A stretch of DNA of 64,000 bases from UHGV virus genome UHGV-0057547, one strand, 5' to 3'. The notes beneath the pieces were generated by a model. That model made no database searches and was not told the DNA's origin. It saw nothing but the letters and a program-made list of their open reading frames with translations. A program made the translations under genes and the position numbers. Within the stretch, counting starts at the first letter, position 1. Each line of letters begins with the position of its first letter. The stretch is from a virus. Below are positions 5,295 through 64,000 of the stretch, in pieces.

Positions 5295-5408
5295 GTTTCA
5301 ATGCTTACATTTAAGCTTCCCTATTCAACATATCCTCTTTCACCTAATGGCTACTTGAGTTTGTGTGATACTCCCAGGGCGTAAATTCGGGTTTGAACAT
5401 CCCTACAT
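5295..5408 (-). ncRNA. E element copy 1 (structured leader RNA, TnpB right-end / omega-RNA-like)
   Basis: ~115-nt element between the promoter (5444-5472) and the sigma gene start. Identical to copy 2 and ~80% to copies 3-6. Compensatory substitutions in two hairpins between copies. Confidence 0.5.
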
Positions 5409-9339: not shown

Positions 9340-9454
9340 GTTTCAATGCTTACATTTAAGCTTCCCTATTCAACATATCCTCTTTCACCTAATGGCTACT
9401 TGAGTTTGTGTGATACTCCCAGGGCGTAAATTCGGGTTTGAACATCCCTACATA
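9340..9454 (-). ncRNA. E element copy 2
   Basis: Identical to copy 1; sits between promoter 9476-9530 and gene 8879..9250. Confidence 0.5.
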
Positions 9455-9672: not shown

Positions 9673-9788
9673 AGTTTCAGTGCTTTGACAAGCTTCCCTG
9701 TTCATCGTGTTCTTTTTCACTTTATATAAGCTACTCAAGTTTTTATAACACTCCAAGGGCGTAAATTCGGAACTGAACTTTCCTACAT
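9673..9788 (-). ncRNA. E element copy 3, directly 3' of tnpB (candidate right-end / omega-RNA scaffold)
   Basis: Begins ~45 nt after the tnpB stop, following a hairpin ACCGAATA..TATTCGGT, in the same orientation as tnpB. Its terminal ACAAGCACTGAAAC is duplicated 37 nt further on. Confidence 0.5.
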
Positions 9789-13384: not shown

Positions 13385-13498
13385 GTTTCAATACTTGTTA
13401 TCAAGCTTCCCTATTCAACGTATCCTCTTCCCCTCTTATGAGGTACTCAAGTTTATATGATACTCCAAGGGCGTAAATTCGGAACTGAACTTTCCTAT
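13385..13498 (-). ncRNA. E element copy 4 (stand-alone unit: promoter, element, terminator)
   Basis: Preceded by promoter 13500-13560 and followed by a GAGAAGAATTTTTTCTTCTC terminator before the next promoter. Confidence 0.5.
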
Positions 13499-18842: not shown

Positions 18843-18954
18843 GTTTCAGTGCTCATTAGTAAGCTTCCCTGTTCAACGTGTTCTCTTTCGTTTTAAACTA
18901 CTCAAGTTTTTTACAACACTCCAAGGGCGTAAATTCGGAACTGAACTTTCCTAT
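18843..18954 (-). ncRNA. E element copy 5
   Basis: Starts immediately after promoter TTGACATTATATATAAGCTAGTATATAAT (18958-18995). Confidence 0.5.
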
Positions 18955-23142: not shown

Positions 23143-23256
23143 GTTTCAATGCTTGTAACAAGCTTCCCTATTCAACGTGTTCTTTTTCACTTTATAAGCT
23201 ACTCAAGTTTTTGTAACACTCCCAGGGCGTAAATTCGGAACTGAACTTTCCTACAT
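23143..23256 (-). ncRNA. E element copy 6
   Basis: Downstream of promoter TTGACTTTTAATAATAATAGCAGTATAAT; followed by two tiny ORFs and a terminator. Confidence 0.5.
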
Positions 23257-56929: not shown

Positions 56930-57199
56930 GTGATAACAAGTCCAAAAAGATTAAGAAGTAAACATGGGGTATTTGATAAAGAATATGATATGATAGAATA
57001 TCCTGAAGGCGTTGATATACAATTAGCTTATGAATTTAATGTTTATAACTTAGGTGAAGAAAATGTAGAAATACAATTTAACAAAGAAGGAGATTTCTTA
57101 ACTTTAGAACCTGGTGAAGGATTTGAAGTTTTCTTACCTATAACTCATGCAGTAGTTAAAACTGCTAATTCGAGATTGAAATATTCTTATTGGTGTTAA
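56930..57199 (+). CDS. hypothetical protein
   Basis: ORF track; GTG start after AGAGGTGAAATAACA. Confidence 0.4.
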   Translation: MITSPKRLRSKHGVFDKEYDMIEYPEGVDIQLAYEFNVYNLGEENVEIQFNKEGDFLTLEPGEGFEVFLPITHAVVKTANSRLKYSYWC

Positions 57200-57529
57200 T
57201 AATATTTTTTTCAAAAAGTGTTTACAAAATTAAATAAAAATGTTATATTATATATATAAGATAAAATAAGGCTACGATAATTATTCCTTCTAATTATATA
57301 AAATAAAAGATTAGGAAATATAAATATAATTATACCGTCTATCGGTATAATGAAAGTATAATTATCAATTTCCTTATTAATAAATAAAATTATGTTTGGC
57401 TATATTAATTATTCCTTCTAATTGGTGCAGATTACATATATATAATTAATGCTTTCCAAACAACAATATAATTTTATAATAAATATTTCATATACATCAC
57501 CCCCTTTTATATATAATATCCACTCGGTT

Positions 57530-57560
57530 CGTTCGAGTGGATATTTTTCAAAGGTTAAAT
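57530..57560 (+). terminator. intrinsic terminator (CCACTCGGTTCGTTCGAGTGG plus T-run)
   Basis: GC-rich 7-bp stem followed by ATATTTTTC. Confidence 0.5.
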
Positions 57561-57585
57561 TAATGAATTTTCCTTTTGATAGTAT

Positions 57586-57644
57586 GTCGCATTATATATG
57601 GCTATGTGTTTAGAATAAACAATTTCCATTAAATATAATGCGAC
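57586..57644 (+). promoter_or_regulatory. perfect 12-bp inverted repeat (GTCGCATTATAT / ATATAATGCGAC) with 35-nt loop in the leader of the TerD-fusion gene
   Basis: Seen directly; no consensus promoter of the local type precedes this gene. Confidence 0.4.
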
Positions 57645-57734
57645 TTTTATTGTTTATGTGTTGAACAGATGGAGATAATAATTTTTATCTCTATGTATTG
57701 AATATATAAATAAAAATTAAGGAGTTGGTATTTA

Positions 57735-59840
57735 ATGAAAGAAATGAACACTATGTATTTAAGAAGAAGAAATAAAATGATAGTTAGCTTTAATGACAAA
57801 GATAGCGAAAAAGTTAGTGAACAAATAATAGCAACTTCATTAGTAAATTTAGAAAGTTATGGATATACATTTTCAGAAAAACTTATAGAAGAATTAAAAT
57901 TATTATCTGTTGAACAATATATAGATTTTTATAATATGACAGTATCAATAATTAAAGAATTAGTAGGAGCAGATAAAGTTACCGAACCTATGTATCCTAA
58001 TTTCCCACAACAAGTAATGGAAATGGATGAAGTTGAATTATATCTTAATGCAATAATTCATTATGCTACTGATGGTCAATTAGTTCCTGAATATGAAAAG
58101 AAAGAAAGATTCCCTTTAATAGGAAATTATGACTTAACTGTTATAGACTTAGGAAATGTTGAAGATTTCAATACAATATTTACTAATTTAGTATCTTCTA
58201 AAGTAAGTATATCTGCTTCAGATAAATCAGATATATCATGGTTTTTAAAAAAATTCAATAAAGAATATCTAAAGAAAATTATGCCTGAAGAAATTCCATT
58301 TAAAGAAATATTGAGTTATGTGACTTCTGAATTATGGTTTGGTGAATACAATGATGACATTAAAGAAATATTGATACCTTATTATAAAACAGCCACTGAT
58401 GTCTTAAGATTAGCAACAGTTTTAAGTGATGGAGATGAAAGTTTATCAAAAGATTATTATTATAATTCATTTAAAAGAAAAGACAGAAGAATACTATTAA
58501 CAATGTTAGAAAATGCAAATAACATAGAAGAGGATATGCTTAGATATAAAAATAGATGGATAAGATTAGGAGAGGTATTACACCCAGGTGAATATAAGAA
58601 ATTTAAAAAAGTTAATAGAGCATTTGATAAAATAAGAAATGATAAAAAAATAGATACATTTAATAGTAATATAGAAAAAGCATTTGAAGAAAAAGACTTA
58701 GATAAAATTCTTGAATTATTAACTAGTAGACCTGGTGAATTCGCTAGAAGATTAGATAGAACTCTTAGATTAGCAACTGATAAAAATGAAAGCAATAAAA
58801 TAGTATTAGCATTTAGTCAAATAGCTGAAAAAATTCCTACTCCTCTTTTACTACAAATTAGAAGTTATTTCATAAAAAGAAAAGAAAACAACAACTTAAG
58901 AGTTTTCTCAATAAAAGGTTCAGGAAAATTATATGGTAAAGAAAATGATTTAAAAGAACTAGATAAAATAACTTGTACTAGAATAGAAAACATTTGTAAT
59001 CTTAGATTAATGAATGAATATTCTAAAAGAGATTATTTAGGGAAAGTTTATATAGACGAAGAATTAAAAGATTATATAGCACCAACATCTCAAAGAAACT
59101 CTAGTAAAGCATTAAAATCAATGGCAAAAGGTAGTAAAATGAAAATAAAAGATGGAACAAATTTTTTAAGAAATTTCGTATATTGGAAACAAAAAAATGG
59201 TTGTAGAACAGATTTAGACTTGAATGCATTATGTTTTACTAATGAGTTAGAAGTTATTGATGAAATATGGTATGGTAATTTAAGAGGTCGTAAAACAAAT
59301 ATTTGTCATAGTGGAGATTTTATATCAGCTAAAGATGGTGCAAGTGAATTTATTGACATTGATATTGAAAAATGTAAAGAAAGTGGCGTTAGATATATCT
59401 TAGTTTCAATTAATAGTTTTTCAGAAGAATATTTCAGTGAATTAGAAGATTGTTTTATAGGTTACATGGAATTAGATAATAATACAACTGGCGAAGTATT
59501 TGAGCCAAAAGCAGTAGCCAATAAATCTGACTTAAGTTCTGATTGTGAACAAGTAATCGCTAACATAATAGATTTAGAGGAAATGTGTATTTATTGGGCT
59601 GATATGCCAGTATCAAAAAGCTATGGATATAATAATATAAAATTTAATAAAAAGAATTTGACATATACCCTAGAATCAATAATGAATATATGCAAACCTA
59701 ATTTATACGATGTAATATTCATGAATGCAATTGCTAGAGGAGAAGTAGTAGATAATAAAGAAGAAGCAGAAATAGTTTATTCAACAGATGGAGATATTAC
59801 ACCATTTGATGTAGATATAATTGTCGGAGAATATATATAA
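57735..59840 (+). CDS. large protein with C-terminal TerD-family domain and ~480-aa unrecognised N-terminal region
   Basis: C-terminus TDLDLNALCF..IWYGNL..CHSGDFISAKDGASEFIDIDIEKC..VRYILVSINSFSEE..TGEVFE..IIDLEEMCIYW follows the TerD pattern (DLDxSAL, FYNNL, HSGDNLTGEG..IDVDLSK, RIAFAVTIH). Confidence 0.6.
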   Translation: MKEMNTMYLRRRNKMIVSFNDKDSEKVSEQIIATSLVNLESYGYTFSEKLIEELKLLSVEQYIDFYNMTVSIIKELVGADKVTEPMYPNFPQQVMEMDEVELYLNAIIHYATDGQLVPEYEKKERFPLIGNYDLTVIDLGNVEDFNTIFTNLVSSKVSISASDKSDISWFLKKFNKEYLKKIMPEEIPFKEILSYVTSELWFGEYNDDIKEILIPYYKTATDVLRLATVLSDGDESLSKDYYYNSFKRKDRRILLTMLENANNIEEDMLRYKNRWIRLGEVLHPGEYKKFKKVNRAFDKIRNDKKIDTFNSNIEKAFEEKDLDKILELLTSRPGEFARRLDRTLRLATDKNESNKIVLAFSQIAEKIPTPLLLQIRSYFIKRKENNNLRVFSIKGSGKLYGKENDLKELDKITCTRIENICNLRLMNEYSKRDYLGKVYIDEELKDYIAPTSQRNSSKALKSMAKGSKMKIKDGTNFLRNFVYWKQKNGCRTDLDLNALCFTNELEVIDEIWYGNLRGRKTNICHSGDFISAKDGASEFIDIDIEKCKESGVRYILVSINSFSEEYFSELEDCFIGYMELDNNTTGEVFEPKAVANKSDLSSDCEQVIANIIDLEEMCIYWADMPVSKSYGYNNIKFNKKNLTYTLESIMNICKPNLYDVIFMNAIARGEVVDNKEEAEIVYSTDGDITPFDVDIIVGEYI

Positions 59841-59881
59841 TAATAATTTATGGTAGAAAAGTAATTTTCTACCTTTTTTTA

Positions 59882-59910
59882 TTTACTTTTAATAAGAATC
59901 TTAGTATAAT
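59882..59910 (+). promoter_or_regulatory. consensus-type promoter
   Basis: TTTACTTTTAATAAGAATCTTAGTATAAT. Confidence 0.5.
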
Positions 59911-59948
59911 ATAAGTAAAAAGGATAATAACAGATATAGAAGGAGAGA

Positions 59949-61208
59949 TTGTATATGTTAGATGAAAAGTTCTTAAGAAAAGAAAATGAAACATTAGAAG
60001 AATATCAACTGAGATTATCTGTGATGAAATTAAAAGATGGAGAAGATATAGAATGGCAAGACATTAAAGAGTTATTAGATAGTGACGAACATAGAGATAC
60101 TCTTAGAAGAAAAGGAAAAGGTCTTGTTATGGCTTATGATATATACGAAGAAAAAATAGCAAAATTAGAAGATGAATATTACTACAAACTTAAGAAAATG
60201 AGAGAAAAAGTTGATGAAGACATAGAAGATAAAAGATTAAGAGAAATCAATAACAAAGTGTTACAGCTTGAAAAAGAAAAAATTAAATTAAAAGACCAAA
60301 GAAATGATTTAAATGCAACAAAAAGAACAATAGCTAGAGTAGAACATTTAGTTGAATGCATGGAAGATAAAATAGAAGAATTAAGTAAAGCTAAACCATT
60401 ACTTGAAAAAGAAGTTATTAAACCAATTAATAATACAATTGGGATAGCAATGATATCAGATATTCACTTAGGAGTTGGAGTTGATAATGAATTATCACAA
60501 TATAATCCTGAGATATGTAAGAAAAAAATGAATCATTATATCAATGAAGTTATTAGATATGGAGAATTTAATAATATAAGTGAATTGTATGTATTAGGCT
60601 TAGGCGATTATGTTACTGGAATTATAAGAAATACAAATAGATTAGAATCAAGATTAAATATAGTTCAACAAGTTTTAGTAGTAAGTGAATTGTTATCTGA
60701 AGCCATTGGAAGACTATCAGAACATTTTATATGTAAAGTTGGTTTAGTTCAAGGTAATCATGATGAGATTAGATTGGGTGATAAGGATAATACATTGATA
60801 GAAGAATCATTTACATTTTTTATAGATGAATATATAAAACAAAGATTAAAAGAAAATAAAAATGTTGAATTCTTACCAACTGAAGATAAAGAAAAAGAAT
60901 ACATAACTTTTAAAATAAATGGATTAAATTTCTTTGCATCTCATGGACAACGAGATAAAGATAGACAACTTGATAGAACTATTGAAATGTTTGATGAAAG
61001 AATAGATGTTGTATTAAGAGGACATTTTCATCAACCGTCAAAACATTATAAGAATAAAACATTGGTAATAACCAATGGTTGCTATTCCGGTGAACCTTAT
61101 TCAAAAAGAGCTAGATTGTATACACCTAGTATTCAAAAATTCTTAATATTTGATGAATATGGATTAGTATGTGATTACGACATCAATATAGATAGATATG
61201 AAAATTAA
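59949..61208 (+). CDS. coiled-coil protein with C-terminal calcineurin-like metallophosphoesterase domain
   Basis: MPP motifs DIHLG, GDYVTG, GNHDE, GHFH in order; N-terminal ~150-aa K/E-rich coiled coil. Confidence 0.7.
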   Translation: MYMLDEKFLRKENETLEEYQLRLSVMKLKDGEDIEWQDIKELLDSDEHRDTLRRKGKGLVMAYDIYEEKIAKLEDEYYYKLKKMREKVDEDIEDKRLREINNKVLQLEKEKIKLKDQRNDLNATKRTIARVEHLVECMEDKIEELSKAKPLLEKEVIKPINNTIGIAMISDIHLGVGVDNELSQYNPEICKKKMNHYINEVIRYGEFNNISELYVLGLGDYVTGIIRNTNRLESRLNIVQQVLVVSELLSEAIGRLSEHFICKVGLVQGNHDEIRLGDKDNTLIEESFTFFIDEYIKQRLKENKNVEFLPTEDKEKEYITFKINGLNFFASHGQRDKDRQLDRTIEMFDERIDVVLRGHFHQPSKHYKNKTLVITNGCYSGEPYSKRARLYTPSIQKFLIFDEYGLVCDYDINIDRYEN

Positions 61209-61452
61209 CACATATAAATTTTATTATACGGTGAGAAATTAATTAAAGATATTAAAAATGTAAAAAGTAGTCTTATAAAAATAGTGTAAGTCAATGTGGA
61301 AGGACGGTTTCACAGCTTACAATTTCCTTCTTTTTTACTATACTATTCTTATAATAATCTATATTTACTTTAATATCTCTCCGATTTGGGTATCATAGTC
61401 CTTTCAACTATGATACCCTTTTTTTATTATATAAAACAGAAAGGAGAAAAAT

Positions 61453-62023
61453 ATGGCAAAAGCAAAAAAAGAAATAAAGAAAATAATATGTACTACATGT
61501 GGAAGAGAATTGCCTGAAAAAGACTTTGGTAAATCTTATTCATTTAGAGATAAGTTAAATGGAAGATTACCGATTTGCAAAGACTGTTGTGCTAGTTTAT
61601 ATGATAAGTTAATGGTAGATTATCAAGATGAAATGAAGGCGTTATATAGATTTTGTATGATATTAGATTTATATTTTTCTAAAGATACAGTTATGGGATT
61701 AATAAGTAAGAATAGAAATTCTGAAAGTAATCTTGGATATCTATATGTATTAAAATATAATTTGGTACAATATAAAAATAAAACATTTCAAGATACAACA
61801 GCATTTGTAAATATATTTGGTATGACAGAAGAAGAGATGGAAGAAGCATTATATTTAAATACTGAAAAAACAAAAGAAGAAATAGAAAGAAAAACTAAGA
61901 AAATAGTTACTCCGGAAGTAATCAAACGTTGGGGCTCGGATTTAGAGCTAGACGATTATATTTTTCTTGAAGATAGATATAACCAAATGCTTCTTGCTTA
62001 TGATGTAATTATGCGTCCTATGT
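61453..62023 (+). CDS. exon 1 of an intron-interrupted gene (zinc-ribbon N-terminus, product unknown)
   Basis: ORF ends in TAA exactly where the intron-like repeat starts; CTATGT at the exon end is complementary (with U-G) to GCATAG 13 nt into the repeat. Confidence 0.45.
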
Positions 62024-62234
62024 AAAGAAATTTGCATAGAAAATCTCCTTAATTGCAGGTAATTCCTAAAGCCTTACACCAAAACGGAAGGTGAAAACCT
62101 AAACGGCAACGGTACGAAAGTAGAAAAAACGTAAGGATGGATATAAGGTTAAATCCTAAGTATCCAAACATATTTATATATGTTAAAATGGATGTTCATG
62201 CAGGTAAGATTCTAAATTAAATTATTTTAAATAC

Positions 62235-62263
62235 TTAACTTTTAATAAGATAAATTGTATAAT
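62235..62263 (+). promoter_or_regulatory. consensus-type promoter inside the intron driving the HNH gene
   Basis: TTAACTTTTAATAAGATAAATTGTATAAT. Confidence 0.45.
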
Positions 62264-62285
62264 ATAAATAAAGAGAGGTGATAAA

Positions 62286-63203
62286 ATGGCAAAAAAGAAA
62301 TCTCATGAGGAGTTTGTTAATGAATTAAATATAAAAAATCCTAATATAAAAGTATTGAATAAATATGTAAATGTGTCTACGAAAATAATGGTTAAATGTA
62401 TAATTTGTGGAAATGAATGGATGGCAATACCTGGTAGTTTATTAAATGGAACTGGGTGTCCAAAATGTGCAAATAAAAATAAATCAAATAAACAAAGAAA
62501 GACAAAAGAACAATTTATAGAAGAGATGAAAATTATTAATCCTAATGTTAAAATAATCGGTGATTATATTAATAATCATACGAAGATAAAATGTGAATGT
62601 TTAATATGTGGGAATATATATTTTATGATACCTAAAAATTTAAGGAAAGGGCAAAATTGTCCTGAATGTGCTATGAAACAAAGAGTATCTAAAAAATCTA
62701 AAATTCATGAACAATTTATAATTGAATTAAATGATATAAATAAAAATATTAAAGTATCAAATAAATATATAAATGCAAAAACAATCATGGAATGTTCTTG
62801 TGATATTTGTGGTCATAAATGGAAATCTAATGCTGATAATTTATTAAGAGGTCATGGGTGTCCAAAGTGTGCAATAGAAAATAGTAGAGGTGAAAATAAC
62901 CATAATTGGAATCCTAATCTTACACAAGAAGATAGAGAAAATAAAAGAAATTATATGGAATATAAAGAATGGAGAAAAAATTGTTATGAACGAGATGATT
63001 ATACTTGTCAAGTTACAGGGAAAAGAGGAGTAGAATTATGCGTACATCATTTATATTCTTATAATAAATATTATTGTTTAAGAACTGCATTAGATAATGG
63101 TATAACAGTATCTAAAGAAATACATGAATTGTTTCATAAAATATATGGACGAGGAGATAACACATTAGAACAATGGGAAGAATTTATTAAAAGTTTAGAA
63201 TAA
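62286..63203 (+). CDS. HNH homing endonuclease with three N-terminal zinc-ribbon repeats
   Basis: Three ~50-aa repeats each with CxxCG..W and GxGCPxCA; C-terminal CQVTG..VHHLYSY..HELFH HNH motif. Confidence 0.65.
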   Translation: MAKKKSHEEFVNELNIKNPNIKVLNKYVNVSTKIMVKCIICGNEWMAIPGSLLNGTGCPKCANKNKSNKQRKTKEQFIEEMKIINPNVKIIGDYINNHTKIKCECLICGNIYFMIPKNLRKGQNCPECAMKQRVSKKSKIHEQFIIELNDINKNIKVSNKYINAKTIMECSCDICGHKWKSNADNLLRGHGCPKCAIENSRGENNHNWNPNLTQEDRENKRNYMEYKEWRKNCYERDDYTCQVTGKRGVELCVHHLYSYNKYYCLRTALDNGITVSKEIHELFHKIYGRGDNTLEQWEEFIKSLE

Positions 63204-63395
63204 TTTAATATGAATCAAAGCTCAACGACTATTCCGTAAGGAAGTAAAACCACAAGCTATTGGTGGAAGAAAAGGGAGATACCTTAACAGATAATGCTGA
63301 AGGTGAAGAAATAGTCTACTCTCATATGAAAGTATGAGCAGTTTTGTATATATACAAAACGGATTAAGTGTAGCGAACTTAATTGAATATAAAGG

Positions 63396-63696
63396 ATAAG
63401 AATCCCTCATCCCTTTGGTCATATCAAGAAATATGTATGAATTATTTACTCCTTAGAAAAGATAGAGGAAATGTTCAACTTCAAAAAAGTATTCAAGAAA
63501 TTAATAGTAAATTACAAGCTGACTGTAAAATGAAATTATCACAAATAGATAATGATGATGATGACAATGCTTGTTTTGGGAAATTTATAGATAGAATAGA
63601 ATTATATGAACCATGTAATAAAAAGTTACCATTTTTTGAAGATATAGATGGAATAAGACAATACTTAAAACGATGGAAACAAAAAGCCACGACTGT
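63396..63696 (+). CDS. putative exon 2 of the intron-interrupted gene
   Basis: Frame of ORF 63383..63700. It ends GACTGT then TAG, exactly where intron-like copy B begins (pairs with GCAGTG in copy B). Boundaries tentative. Confidence 0.35.
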
Positions 63697-64000
63697 ATAG
63701 AAATATGCAGTGGACACAGATTTAATTGCAGGTAATTCCTAAAGCCTTACACCAAAACGGAAGGTGAAAACCTAAACGGCAACGGTACGAAAGTAGAAAA
63801 AACGTAAGGATGGATATAAGGTTAAATCCTAAGTATCCAAACATATTTATATATGTTAAAATGGGTGTTCATGCAGGTAAGATTCTAAGTGATAATTTTA
63901 TATCATATGAATAAACTTCAACGACTAGAATGCAAATTCGTAGGGTGTAAGCGATTGACACTCGAAAAGGTCTGCCCTTAACAGGTAATGCTGAAGGTGA
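63697..64000 (+). mobile_element. putative group I intron copy B (ORF-less; 3' end beyond window)
   Basis: Near-identical to copy A over its first ~190 nt; contains TCAACGACTAGA (R-like) and ends in the window at the segment equal to A 63283-63304. Confidence 0.45.

What the first reader, a model, noticed from the sequence alone, without database searches (positions are those of the whole stretch)
57200..61208. Insulated two-gene module: TerD-domain fusion protein plus coiled-coil calcineurin-like phosphoesterase (candidate stress or defence/anti-defence system)
Gene 57735..59840 encodes 701 aa. Its last ~220 residues match the TerD (tellurite-resistance / Ca-binding) fold motif by motif. The first ~480 residues match nothing I recognise. 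It is followed 108 bp later by 59949..61208, which has an N-terminal coiled coil and a complete metallophosphoesterase motif set (DxH, GD, GNHD, GHxH). Unlike its neighbours, the TerD gene has no local consensus promoter. It is preceded by a GC-rich terminator, a perfect 12-bp inverted repeat with a 35-nt loop, duplicated ATTATTCCTTCTAATT boxes (57281, 57407) and a palindrome TACCGTCTATCGGTA. Ter-family domains are known partners of phosphatase / kinase / vWA modules in predicted phage-related stress systems, but I do not know a described TerD-fusion plus MPP pair.
Basis: partly seen in the sequence, partly recalled or inferred. Interest (0 to 1): 0.75.

Follow-up and report, generated by a model that had tools for sequence, protein, structure and literature searches.

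The report
TerD-fusion gene with partner RNA hairpins
The two genes are not a functional pair, but the short repeated "boxes" upstream of the TerD-fusion gene are the cores of a strongly conserved folded RNA, apparently undescribed, that accompanies this widespread protein family in bacteria of many phyla and in large phages.

Summary
The two-gene module is not. Gene B (59955-61208) is the YonJ-type metallophosphoesterase of an SPbeta-like phage backbone (yonK - yonJ - yonG - terminase). Related phages have that backbone without gene A. None of 80 bacterial loci carrying gene A has gene B within 8 kb. A terminator and a promoter-like site separate A from B.

Gene A (57735-59840) has an alpha-solenoid followed by a TerD fold. 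It belongs to a large uncharacterised family (more than 3,500 homologs), and no neighbouring protein gene is conserved with it. With its 535-bp leader and its own terminator it forms a 2.75-kb insert, a "moron".

The duplicated boxes and the 12-bp inverted repeat are two intact units and one degenerate unit of a ~70-nt RNA hairpin: P1 - GGCUAU - P2 - UUCCUUCUA loop - P2' - GCUUUCC - P1'. Thirteen of its 17 base pairs covary. My covariance model finds it on gene A's strand in 89 of 93 loci that encode A, either just upstream or directly after the stop codon, in one to six copies. Motif-first scans of viral and metagenomic contigs lead back to gene A. Rfam 15 and the papers searched do not contain it. 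Most likely it is protein A's cognate RNA; that step is inferred, not shown.

The parts
57221..57249 (+). Sigma-70-like promoter of the gene A cassette (TTTACA - 17 nt - TG-TATATT)
   Evidence: 10/12 match, TG extension. Invariant in five close relatives. In the more distant L106/L107 the -35 element is TTGACA. Function is inferred.
57264..57379 (+). RNA unit 1 of the UUCCUUCUA hairpin motif. It contains the first 16-mer box (57280-57295) and a 51-nt insertion in the variable loop.
   Evidence: Covariance model R1: 31.7 bits, E 1.5e-6. Compensatory changes in P1 and P2 among the phage relatives.
57331..57349 (+). Small hairpin (TATACCG-TCTAT-CGGTATA) inside the variable loop of unit 1.
   Evidence: Compensatory substitutions in L007/L001 (TTCACCG...CGGTGAA).
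57392..57463 (+). RNA unit 2 of the motif, containing the second 16-mer box (57408-57423)
   Evidence: R1: 59.6 bits, E 1.9e-14. This unit was part of the seed alignment A6.
57516..57550 (+). Intrinsic-terminator-like hairpin (12-bp stem, 7-nt loop, U run) inside the leader
   Evidence: I18. One G-C to A-U compensatory change in L007.
57586..57644 (+). P1, GGCUAU and AAUUUCC are kept; the UUCCUUCU core has been lost to a deletion of about 25-31 nt.
   Evidence: I16. R1 with filters off: 17.2 bits, E 7.7e-4, with 40 interior model positions deleted. The same unit is intact in L007 (54.6 bits) and in L005/L006 (31.6 bits).
57735..59840 (+). Gene A, 701 aa: N-terminal alpha/beta module, alpha-solenoid (about aa 135-460), TerD beta-sandwich (about aa 462-640, nt 59118-59654), C-terminal alpha/beta tail
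   Evidence: Under purifying selection within the phage lineage (dN/dS 0.11-0.17).
59852..59880 (+). Intrinsic terminator that closes the gene A cassette
   Evidence: 9-bp stem followed by a T7 run; sequence.
59955..61208 (+). Gene B, a YonJ-type coiled-coil metallophosphoesterase. It is NOT part of the gene A unit. It is a phage backbone gene with its own promoter-like site (59882-59910) and terminator (61388-61418).

Best explanation
The locus contains two independent things.

(1) Gene B is the yonJ-type metallophosphoesterase of an SPbeta-like phage backbone.

(2) Gene A, its 535-bp leader and its terminator (57200-59880) form a self-contained accessory cassette, a moron, inserted between the 89-aa gene and yonJ.

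The cassette is a protein-RNA pair. Gene A encodes an alpha-solenoid + TerD-fold protein of a large uncharacterised family. The leader carries two intact copies and one decayed copy of a ~70-nt hairpin RNA. The hairpin presents an invariant (C)UUCCUUCUA loop segment above an internal loop made of GGCUAU and GCUUUCC. This hairpin travels with gene A's family across bacterial phyla and phages.

Proposed mechanism (inferred, not shown): the hairpins are protein A's cognate RNA. Protein A binds them in its own transcript, which gives feedback control of its synthesis. In the phage and other leader-type loci this would act through the terminators or the ribosome-binding site that follow the units. 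Alternatively, or in addition, the protein and RNA form a stable ribonucleoprotein in which the TerD domain supplies a divalent-cation-dependent switch.

The phage acquired the whole unit from a low-GC Firmicute-like source and keeps it under purifying selection as a host-modulating accessory function.
For: Shown: A and B are independent.
- Loci with B but no A. In L099 the gap between the 88-aa gene and yonJ is 63 bp; in the window it is 2,749 bp.
- Loci with A but no B.
- A terminator and a promoter-like site lie between them.
- The recombination breakpoint lies inside B.
- No protein neighbour of A is conserved. Among 142 neighbours at positions +/-1 and +/-2 in 36 loci, the commonest Pfam family is MFS_1, in 5.

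Shown: the RNA motif is a real structure.
- In 54 diverse units, 13 of 17 pairs covary. 95% of cells are paired against 68.8% in shuffles. The covariation score is 0.718 against 0.200 in shuffles (0 of 500 shuffles reach it) and 0.12-0.15 in the slid controls.
- Frequent G-U pairs fix the transcribed strand as gene A's strand.

Shown: the motif is linked to gene A.
- TTCCTTCT is 61 times denser upstream of A than elsewhere in the same loci: 3.02 against 0.049 per kb.
- Model R1 finds 165 units in 1.5 Mb, all on A's strand, in 89 of 93 loci that carry A and in none of the 6 loci that lack A.
- The only two hits at E <= 1 in the 64-kb window are in A's leader.
- Motif-first scans: 23 of 29 model-confirmed viral loci and 13 of 15 metagenomic loci have an A homolog next to the motif. 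Both metagenomic exceptions lie at contig ends.

Evidence favouring a protein partner over a ligand sensor.
- Units start 4-14 nt after A's stop codon in Niallia, Lachnospiraceae, Bacteroidales, Sphingobacteriales and Entomomonas loci.
- Three units flank A on each side in several phages, and one contig has six upstream.
- The extra copies in viral contigs that were checked (L115, L125, L134) lie on contigs that also encode A.
- A has about 20 invariant or nearly invariant Arg/Lys residues.

Against: Most units lie in 5' leaders, which is also what a riboswitch would look like. In Paenibacillus the 3' strand of the last unit's P1 overlaps a GGAG just upstream of the start codon.

Four loci that carry A have no detectable unit: L040, L041, and the phages Weasels2 and LpeD.

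A few units sit next to other genes: L010 (a MORN-repeat protein), L115, L125, L134, L150.

The 80 genome loci are dominated by Paenibacillus, so counts of loci overstate the number of independent events.

The promoter is only a consensus match. How transcription passes the leader terminators to reach gene A is unknown.
Confidence: 0.55

Rival explanations
1. The hairpin is a ligand-sensing riboswitch, or another trans-factor-independent cis-regulator, that controls gene A. It might sense a cation or a small molecule related to TerD function. Tandem copies would give cooperative control.
For: Most units lie within 600 nt upstream of A on the coding strand. They have highly conserved unpaired nucleotides framed by covarying helices. 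Terminator-like hairpins or U runs follow units in the phage and in several bacteria, and P1 overlaps GGAG before the start codon in Paenibacillus. Tandem riboswitches are known.
Against: Units directly follow the stop codon in at least 8 lineages, one of them facing a convergent gene (L083). They flank A on both sides in several phages, and up to six copies occur. The motif is tied almost entirely to one protein family rather than to a pathway of different genes. The aptamer would be a simple hairpin with a variable loop. No Rfam family matches.
Confidence: 0.2
2. The cassette is a type III toxin-antitoxin-like or abortive-infection module. The tandem RNA units would be an antitoxin that neutralises protein A, and the leader terminator would set the RNA-to-protein ratio.
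For: The phage architecture (promoter, 2-4 tandem RNA units, intrinsic terminator, gene) has the same layout as ToxIN-type loci (comparison from my own knowledge of ToxIN). The cassette occurs on phages, a conjugative element and an island next to smpB. A few neighbours match defence models.
Against: A matches no PADLOC model, and its fold search returned TerD and helical-repeat proteins but no nuclease. The units are structural repeats with divergent stems, not near-identical direct repeats. Many loci have a single unit, or have units after the gene. The family is highly conserved (mean column identity 52% across phyla) and partly syntenic in Paenibacillus chromosomes, unlike fast-evolving toxin-antitoxin loci.
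Confidence: 0.1
3. The units are merely gene-specific structural elements, such as terminators, mRNA stabilisers or RNase processing sites, with no dedicated partner.
For: In several loci P1 is followed directly by a U run and so doubles as the terminator of the A mRNA (L016, L049, L083, L055, L074).
Against: Generic stabilisers or terminators do not keep 16 invariant nucleotides, including a 9-nt loop segment, across at least 8 phyla. They also do not follow one protein family to either side of the gene.
Confidence: 0.1
4. One reading: A and B act together as a TerD-phosphoesterase stress, defence or anti-defence pair.
For: A and B are adjacent and on the same strand in the window and in its closest relatives L001, L002 and L005-L007.
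Against: See: the pair does not co-occur outside this lineage. The two genes are separate transcription units. B's catalytic domain has been swapped (about 60% identity) while A stays 97% identical. B is a backbone gene found in 527 phage records; A is found in 11.
Confidence: 0.03

Closest known systems
Ro60 (TROVE) proteins and their adjacent Y RNA genes (bacterial Rsr with YrlA/YrlB; phage Ro60)
   Different: There is no sequence-level TROVE signal. The C-terminal domain is TerD, not vWA. The RNA has no Rfam Y-RNA match and is a simple two-helix hairpin, usually inside A's own UTR. RNA binding by A is untested.
Type III toxin-antitoxin systems (ToxIN, CptIN, TenpIN)
   Same: In the phage cassette, the layout is promoter, tandem RNA repeats, terminator, protein gene. 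Both kinds of system occur on mobile elements and phages.
   Different: The protein matches no PADLOC model and its fold search returned no nuclease. The repeats are 65-120 nt and diverge in their stems. Units can follow the gene or occur singly. The family is conserved and often chromosomal.
Autoregulatory mRNA leaders bound by their own gene product (ribosomal-protein leaders, ThrRS, and similar)
   Same: A conserved structured element is restricted to the mRNA of one protein family. P1 can occlude the ribosome-binding site.
   Different: The element also occurs in 3' UTRs and in arrays of up to six. The protein is not known to bind RNA.
TerD / Ter stress-response proteins (Klebsiella TerD 2kxt, Streptomyces SCO6318 2qz7) and Ter genes in jumbo phages (PMC7824862)
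   Same: The C-terminal domain has the TerD beta-sandwich, and it keeps the DxD and HxGD parts of the cation-binding region. Stand-alone Ter genes in large phages have been proposed to act in superinfection exclusion or stress tolerance.
   Different: Classical TerD proteins are about 190 aa, have a single domain and sit in ter operons with TerB, TerC, TerY and others. Here TerD is the tail of a 700-aa protein with no Ter neighbours, and the GDGDDE acidic cluster is replaced by (P/D)GA(S/C)EF.
NCBIfam NF041916, MXAN_6230/SCO0854 family RING domain-containing protein
   Same: It is collinear with gene A over most of its length (1.1e-109; aa 305-672 align to model positions 385-757 of 842).
   Different: The score of 367.8 bits is below the 600-bit equivalog cut-off. 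The phage/Firmicute form is about 140 aa shorter and has no Cys-rich N-terminus (the first 110 residues contain no cysteine).
SPbeta YonJ and the SPbeta late operon; phage morons
   Same: B's homologs carry Pfam YonJ_N + Metallophos_2 and lie between yonK and yonG, upstream of the terminase gene. In SPbeta the YonO RNA polymerase transcribes this operon from a start site upstream of yonK (PMC5467207). Gene A's cassette, with its own promoter-like site and terminator and absent from sister genomes, fits the definition of a moron (PMC3594210).

Membership tests
TerD domain (Pfam PF02342) | Sequence match above Pfam's gathering score | tested here: met
   30.7 bits against 25.3, E 2.6e-7, aa 462-584. 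Only 4 of 24 family members pass individually.
TerD domain (Pfam PF02342) | TerD beta-sandwich fold | tested here: met
TerD domain (Pfam PF02342) | Complete Ca2+-binding acidic motif GDN(R/L)TG(E/A)GDGDDE | tested here: inconclusive
   D493, D495, H525-D528, E538 and D541 are invariant, but the GDGDDE cluster is replaced by xGA(S/C)EF. Cation binding is untested.
NCBIfam NF041916 (MXAN_6230/SCO0854 RING-domain family, equivalog) | Score at or above the curated cut-off of 600 bits | tested here: not met
   367.8 bits. A is a related family, not an equivalog.
NCBIfam NF041916 (MXAN_6230/SCO0854 RING-domain family, equivalog) | RING (Cys/His zinc-binding) domain | tested here: not met
   No cysteine in the first 110 residues and no RING-type Pfam hit.
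Ter operon / TerY-P type systems | Neighbouring TerB/TerC/TerY(vWA)/PP2C/kinase genes, or a PADLOC model match | tested here: not met
   No PADLOC hit for A or B. No Ter partner appears among the 25 commonest Pfam families of the 142 neighbours.
Calcineurin-like metallophosphoesterase (PF00149 / PF12850), gene B | HMM above cut-off and the five metal-ligand motifs | tested here: met
YonJ family (SPbeta-like phages), gene B | YonJ_N + phosphoesterase architecture, and a position between yonK and yonG | tested here: met
   Homologs at 46-53% identity carry PF27386 YonJ_N. YonK (PF09642, E 8.3e-7) lies upstream and a YonG_N-type gene downstream. PF27386 itself was not reported for the window protein by the local Pfam copy.
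Mre11/SbcD nuclease, gene B (the PHROG 'exonuclease' label) | SbcD/Mre11 HMM above cut-off | tested here: not met
   TIGR00619 scores 13.2 bits against a cut-off of 77.65. The structural similarity is no better than to generic phosphodiesterases. Presence of a capping domain or a Rad50/SbcC partner was not examined.
Any Rfam 15 RNA family, for the hairpin units | Covariance-model match | tested here: not met
   No match at E <= 1 in window 57150-57780. No gathering-level match upstream of A in 8 bacterial loci. At E <= 10, nothing overlaps the units in L011.
Riboswitch / cis-regulatory leader | Consistent 5'-UTR position with an expression platform | tested here: inconclusive
   About 149 of 165 units lie within 600 nt upstream of A, but 13 units directly follow the stop codon and several phages have units on both sides. 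No ligand was tested.
Type III toxin-antitoxin | Near-identical tandem RNA repeats upstream of an endoribonuclease toxin | tested here: not met
   The stems differ between units of one locus. A matches no PADLOC model, and its fold search returned no nuclease. Only the layout is similar.
Ro60 / TROVE ribonucleoprotein | TROVE domain (Pfam) and vWA domain; adjacent Y RNA | tested here: inconclusive
Phage moron | Self-contained transcription unit that is absent at the same site in related genomes | tested here: met
   Promoter-like site at 57221-57249 and terminator at 59852-59880. L099, L101 and L102 lack the 2.75-kb insert at the same site, and L098 also lacks gene A. Transcription was not measured.

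The most novel reading that the evidence does not exclude
The UUCCUUCUA hairpin is a previously undescribed, phylogenetically broad RNA family. It is the dedicated RNA subunit or ligand of the alpha-solenoid + TerD protein family. Together they would form a new ribonucleoprotein system, analogous to Ro60-Y RNA or possibly related to it, perhaps switched by a cation through the TerD domain. Large phages of several host groups have repeatedly captured it as a complete protein-plus-RNA cassette.
Probability: 0.4. Interest if true: 0.85.

Novelty: new variant of a known kind. Interest (0 to 1): 0.68.

Why it matters
The protein family is large: more than 3,500 homologs, in at least 8 bacterial phyla and in phages of at least 8 host genera. 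It is highly conserved and has no known function, being annotated only as "TerD family protein" or "cytoplasmic protein".

A strongly covarying RNA element that follows this family to either end of the gene gives the first concrete, testable handle on what the protein does. The tests are RNA binding, autoregulation and ribonucleoprotein formation.

It also adds a candidate RNA class that is absent from Rfam 15.

For phage biology, it shows that an accessory gene can be transferred together with its cognate RNA as a single cassette. It also shows that gene adjacency in mosaic phage genomes is a poor guide to functional pairing.

Tried and rejected
- A+B as a module: rejected.
- A conserved protein partner for A in bacteria: none found. 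All-against-all clustering of neighbours and Pfam/PADLOC tallies of 142 neighbours show nothing recurrent. The double-AAA ATPase next to A in Niallia is not general.
- A as a known defence protein: no PADLOC hit.
- The C-rich CACCCCC segment (57498-57504) as a specific anti-RBS element for gene A: rejected. Duplex energy is -9.4 kcal/mol against a shuffle mean of -11.2, and other genes' ribosome-binding sites pair better. The long-range pairing that RNAalifold proposed has no covariation.
- The 54-aa ORF at 57449-57613 as a gene: rejected. It spans the terminator, and a 1-nt indel in relatives breaks its frame.
- Sequence-level search for the N-terminal domain in the PDB and Pfam: nothing beyond TerD.
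- The afdb50 fold library was unavailable.
- The Ter-systems paper (Mol Biosyst 2012) is not held.
- The T-arm-like insert in the L048 unit: ARAGORN finds no tRNA there.
- Genes next to stray units (MORN-repeat protein, GIY-YIG-like protein, small ORFs): uninformative.
- Literature searches for the motif sequence, for TerD-associated RNA motifs, and for SCO0854 / MXAN_6230: nothing relevant.

Full report
CONTEXT. The window is about 23% GC and looks like part of a large SPbeta-like phage. It holds two endolysins, a RecD/Dda-like helicase and an HNH endonuclease, an HU-like protein (yonN-type) and a YonK-family protein. Close relatives at 90-97% identity are IMG/VR contigs of 174-198 kb and a 208-kb metagenomic contig. 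No annotated phage is similar at the DNA level.

OBSERVATION.
- Gene B has a complete, invariant metallophosphoesterase motif set. Its model shows a roughly 100-residue single helix before the catalytic domain.
- The 16-mer boxes are at 57280 and 57408, against 0.01 occurrences expected by chance.
- The 12-bp inverted repeat with 35 nt between the arms, the terminator-like hairpin and the palindrome are all present.
- Corrections: B probably starts at ATG 59955. The N-terminal part of A is not orphan sequence, because PHROG 33734 and NCBIfam NF041916 cover it.

THE TWO GENES ARE NOT A MODULE.
- B's homologs carry Pfam YonJ_N + Metallophos_2. In related phages, in Bacillus phage SPbetaL4 and in Clostridioides phage AR1086-1, B is followed by yonG and the packaging genes; in the related metagenomic phages, whose neighbours carry Pfam labels, it lies between yonK and yonG. 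None of these loci has gene A. In L099 the 88-aa gene and yonJ are 63 bp apart. In the window the same two genes are 2,749 bp apart.
- B-type proteins occur in 527 phage records, and A-type proteins in 11.
- None of 80 bacterial loci encoding an A homolog (39-45% identity, full length) has a B homolog within 8 kb. The other A-bearing contexts examined also lack B: Rhodococcus phage Weasels2, Lactobacillus phage LpeD, a conjugative element, an island next to smpB, and chromosomal Firmicute contexts.
- An intrinsic terminator (59852-59873 plus a T run) and a TTTACT-17-TATAAT site (59882-59910) separate A from B.
- Comparing the window with L006, DNA identity is 94-100% through A and the first ~250 nt of B. 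It falls to about 60% across B's catalytic domain (60400-61200) and returns to 92-98% afterwards. B is therefore exchanged independently of A.

GENE A'S FAMILY.
- Members come from Bacillota, Bacteroidota, Acidobacteriota, Armatimonadota, Cyanobacteriota, Chloroflexota, Verrucomicrobiota and other phyla.
- Phage members infect Rhodococcus, Xanthomonas, Lactobacillus, Ruegeria, Rhodobacter, Salicola and Campylobacter.
- The alignment is collinear from end to end, with 52% mean column identity and many invariant Arg, Lys, Asp and Glu residues.
- No protein neighbour is conserved with A. A handful of neighbours match defence models.
- Within the phage lineage A is under purifying selection, with dN/dS of 0.11-0.17 in both halves of the protein.

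THE LEADER.
- The 535-bp region upstream of A is conserved in the five close relatives at 76-91% identity. Blocks of it are also conserved in a phage whose A protein is only 59% identical (L106/L107).
- A promoter-like site (TTTACA or TTGACA, 17 nt, TATATT) is conserved in all of these sequences.
- RNAalifold finds 22 of 125 predicted pairs with compensatory changes in the six phage leaders.

THE RNA MOTIF.
Its density there is 3.02 per kb, against 0.049 per kb elsewhere on the same strand of the same loci.
- Reading the sequences shows one unit: P1 (7 bp), GGCUAU, P2 (9-10 bp), (C)UUCCUUCUA, a variable loop, UAG, P2', (G/A)(C/A)UUUCC, P1'.
- An alignment of 54 diverse units has 16 invariant positions, and 13 of 17 base pairs show compensatory changes. 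95% of cells are paired, against 68.8% in shuffles. The covariation score is 0.718, against 0.200 in shuffles (0 of 500 reach it) and 0.12-0.15 when the pairing partners are slid. Many pairs are G-U, which fits only the strand of gene A.
- Covariance model R1 finds exactly two hits at E <= 1 in the 64-kb window. Unit 2 is at 57392-57463 (59.6 bits). Unit 1 is at 57264-57379 (31.7 bits); a 51-nt insertion in its loop contains the palindrome.
- The "12-bp inverted repeat with 35-nt loop" is a third unit that has lost its core by deletion. It scores 17.2 bits with filters off. The same unit is intact in L005, L006 and L007.

LINKAGE BETWEEN THE MOTIF AND GENE A.
- Across 99 loci (1.5 Mb), R1 finds 165 units, all on A's strand. 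They occur in 89 of 93 loci that carry A and in none of the six loci that lack it.
- About 149 units lie within 600 nt upstream of A.
- Thirteen units start 4-14 nt after A's stop codon. These are in two Niallia species, Lachnospiraceae, Bacteroidales, Sphingobacteriales and Entomomonas. In some of them P1 followed by a U run acts as the terminator, and in L083 the unit faces a convergent gene.
- Motif-first test in viral contigs: a 16-base pattern matched 48 stretches, of which R1 confirmed 29, and 23 of those have an A homolog (27-44% identity) beside the units. Several phages carry three units on each side of A. Three of the exceptions checked (L115, L125, L134) lie on jumbo-phage contigs that also encode A elsewhere.
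- Motif-first test in metagenomes: of the first 80 stretches, R1 confirmed 15. Thirteen of these have A beside the units, and the other two are cut off by contig ends. One contig has six units upstream of A.
- Rfam 15 has no matching family. Searches of the paper library, including the three large motif-discovery papers, found no description. I cannot exclude a description outside these sources.

INTERPRETATION.
- Shown: A and B are unrelated neighbours. Gene A, its leader and its terminator form an inserted cassette. The leader consists of units of a conserved structured RNA, and that RNA is genetically tied to A's family in both search directions.
- Inferred: the RNA is protein A's partner, either as an autoregulatory binding site or as a ribonucleoprotein subunit. 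The reasons are that it follows one protein family to either end of the gene, that it comes in arrays, and that its recognition features are unpaired and invariant. The basic, Ro60-like solenoid is compatible with this idea but does not prove it.
- A riboswitch remains possible, because most units lie in 5' UTRs. A type III toxin-antitoxin-like arrangement shares the layout, but the protein and the repeat properties do not fit.
- In SPbeta the YonO polymerase transcribes the late operon from a start site upstream of yonK (PMC5467207). If this phage does the same, the cassette sits inside that operon, and its own terminators may insulate it from host-polymerase transcription. This was not tested.
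- Ter genes in large phages have been proposed to serve in superinfection exclusion or stress tolerance (PMC7824862). Whether that applies here is unknown.

VERDICT. The sequence observation is confirmed. The two-gene interpretation is not supported. What is really there is a protein-plus-RNA cassette whose RNA component appears to be a new family.

Noticed in passing
window 5317-5379, 9362-9424, 9694-9759, 13407-13471, 18865-18927, 23164-23227 (all minus strand): Six RAGATH-18 RNAs (Rfam RF03064) at 57-68 bits against a gathering score of 44.9, spread among minus-strand genes of this phage.
   Followed up: no
window 61453-63700: The yonG-like gene is split. 61453-62025 (190 aa) and 63383-63700 (105 aa) are contiguous in L001 and L006. 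The ~1.4-kb insert carries an HNH endonuclease gene (62286-63203) and a sub-threshold group I intron match at 63179-63338 (25 bits, E 8e-4). A 53-bp stretch matches Staphylococcus Twort-like phages. L005 has a different HNH gene (57% identity) at the same site.
   Followed up: partly
window 60400-61200 (gene B catalytic domain): Two alleles of the YonJ phosphoesterase domain, about 60% identical, occur in otherwise 92-100% identical phages. The N-terminal helix region is shared. L005 has the window's allele; L001, L006 and L007 have the other. This could be domain-level mosaicism or diversifying selection.
   Followed up: partly
L001 6138-7397: A relative carries an extra 419-aa gene with weak HTH and DUF559-like hits. 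It is inserted exactly between the 89-aa gene and the conserved leader of gene A. L106 has a 312-aa insert one gene earlier. This junction looks like an insertion hot spot.
   Followed up: partly
L048 3530-3680: One Lachnospiraceae unit, downstream of A, has a long loop insertion that contains tRNA-like strings (GGTTCGAGTCC and GCAGTTGGCAGC). ARAGORN calls no tRNA there. The insertion recalls the tRNA-like modules of bacterial Y RNAs.
   Followed up: partly
L113, L119, L121, L135, L141, L151, L164; L203: Some phage and metagenomic contigs have three RNA units on each side of the A homolog. One contig has six units in tandem upstream.
   Followed up: partly
L011, L013, L026, L044 leaders (about -100 to -60 from the A start codon): Paenibacillus-type leaders, and the one Priestia leader L044, keep a purine-rich GAGAGGAGG-like segment between or after the units. 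It is largely complementary to the UUCCUUCU loop and could form an alternative pairing. This was seen by eye only.
   Followed up: no
L004 4833-7181 (Niallia circulans): A 780-aa protein with two AAA+ modules lies upstream of the A homolog. It is not a general neighbour.
   Followed up: partly
window 57498-57504: CACCCCC is one of only 8 plus-strand CCCCC runs in the window. It is invariant in the close relatives, lies just before the leader terminator, and is unexplained. The idea that it pairs specifically with A's ribosome-binding site was rejected.
   Followed up: yes
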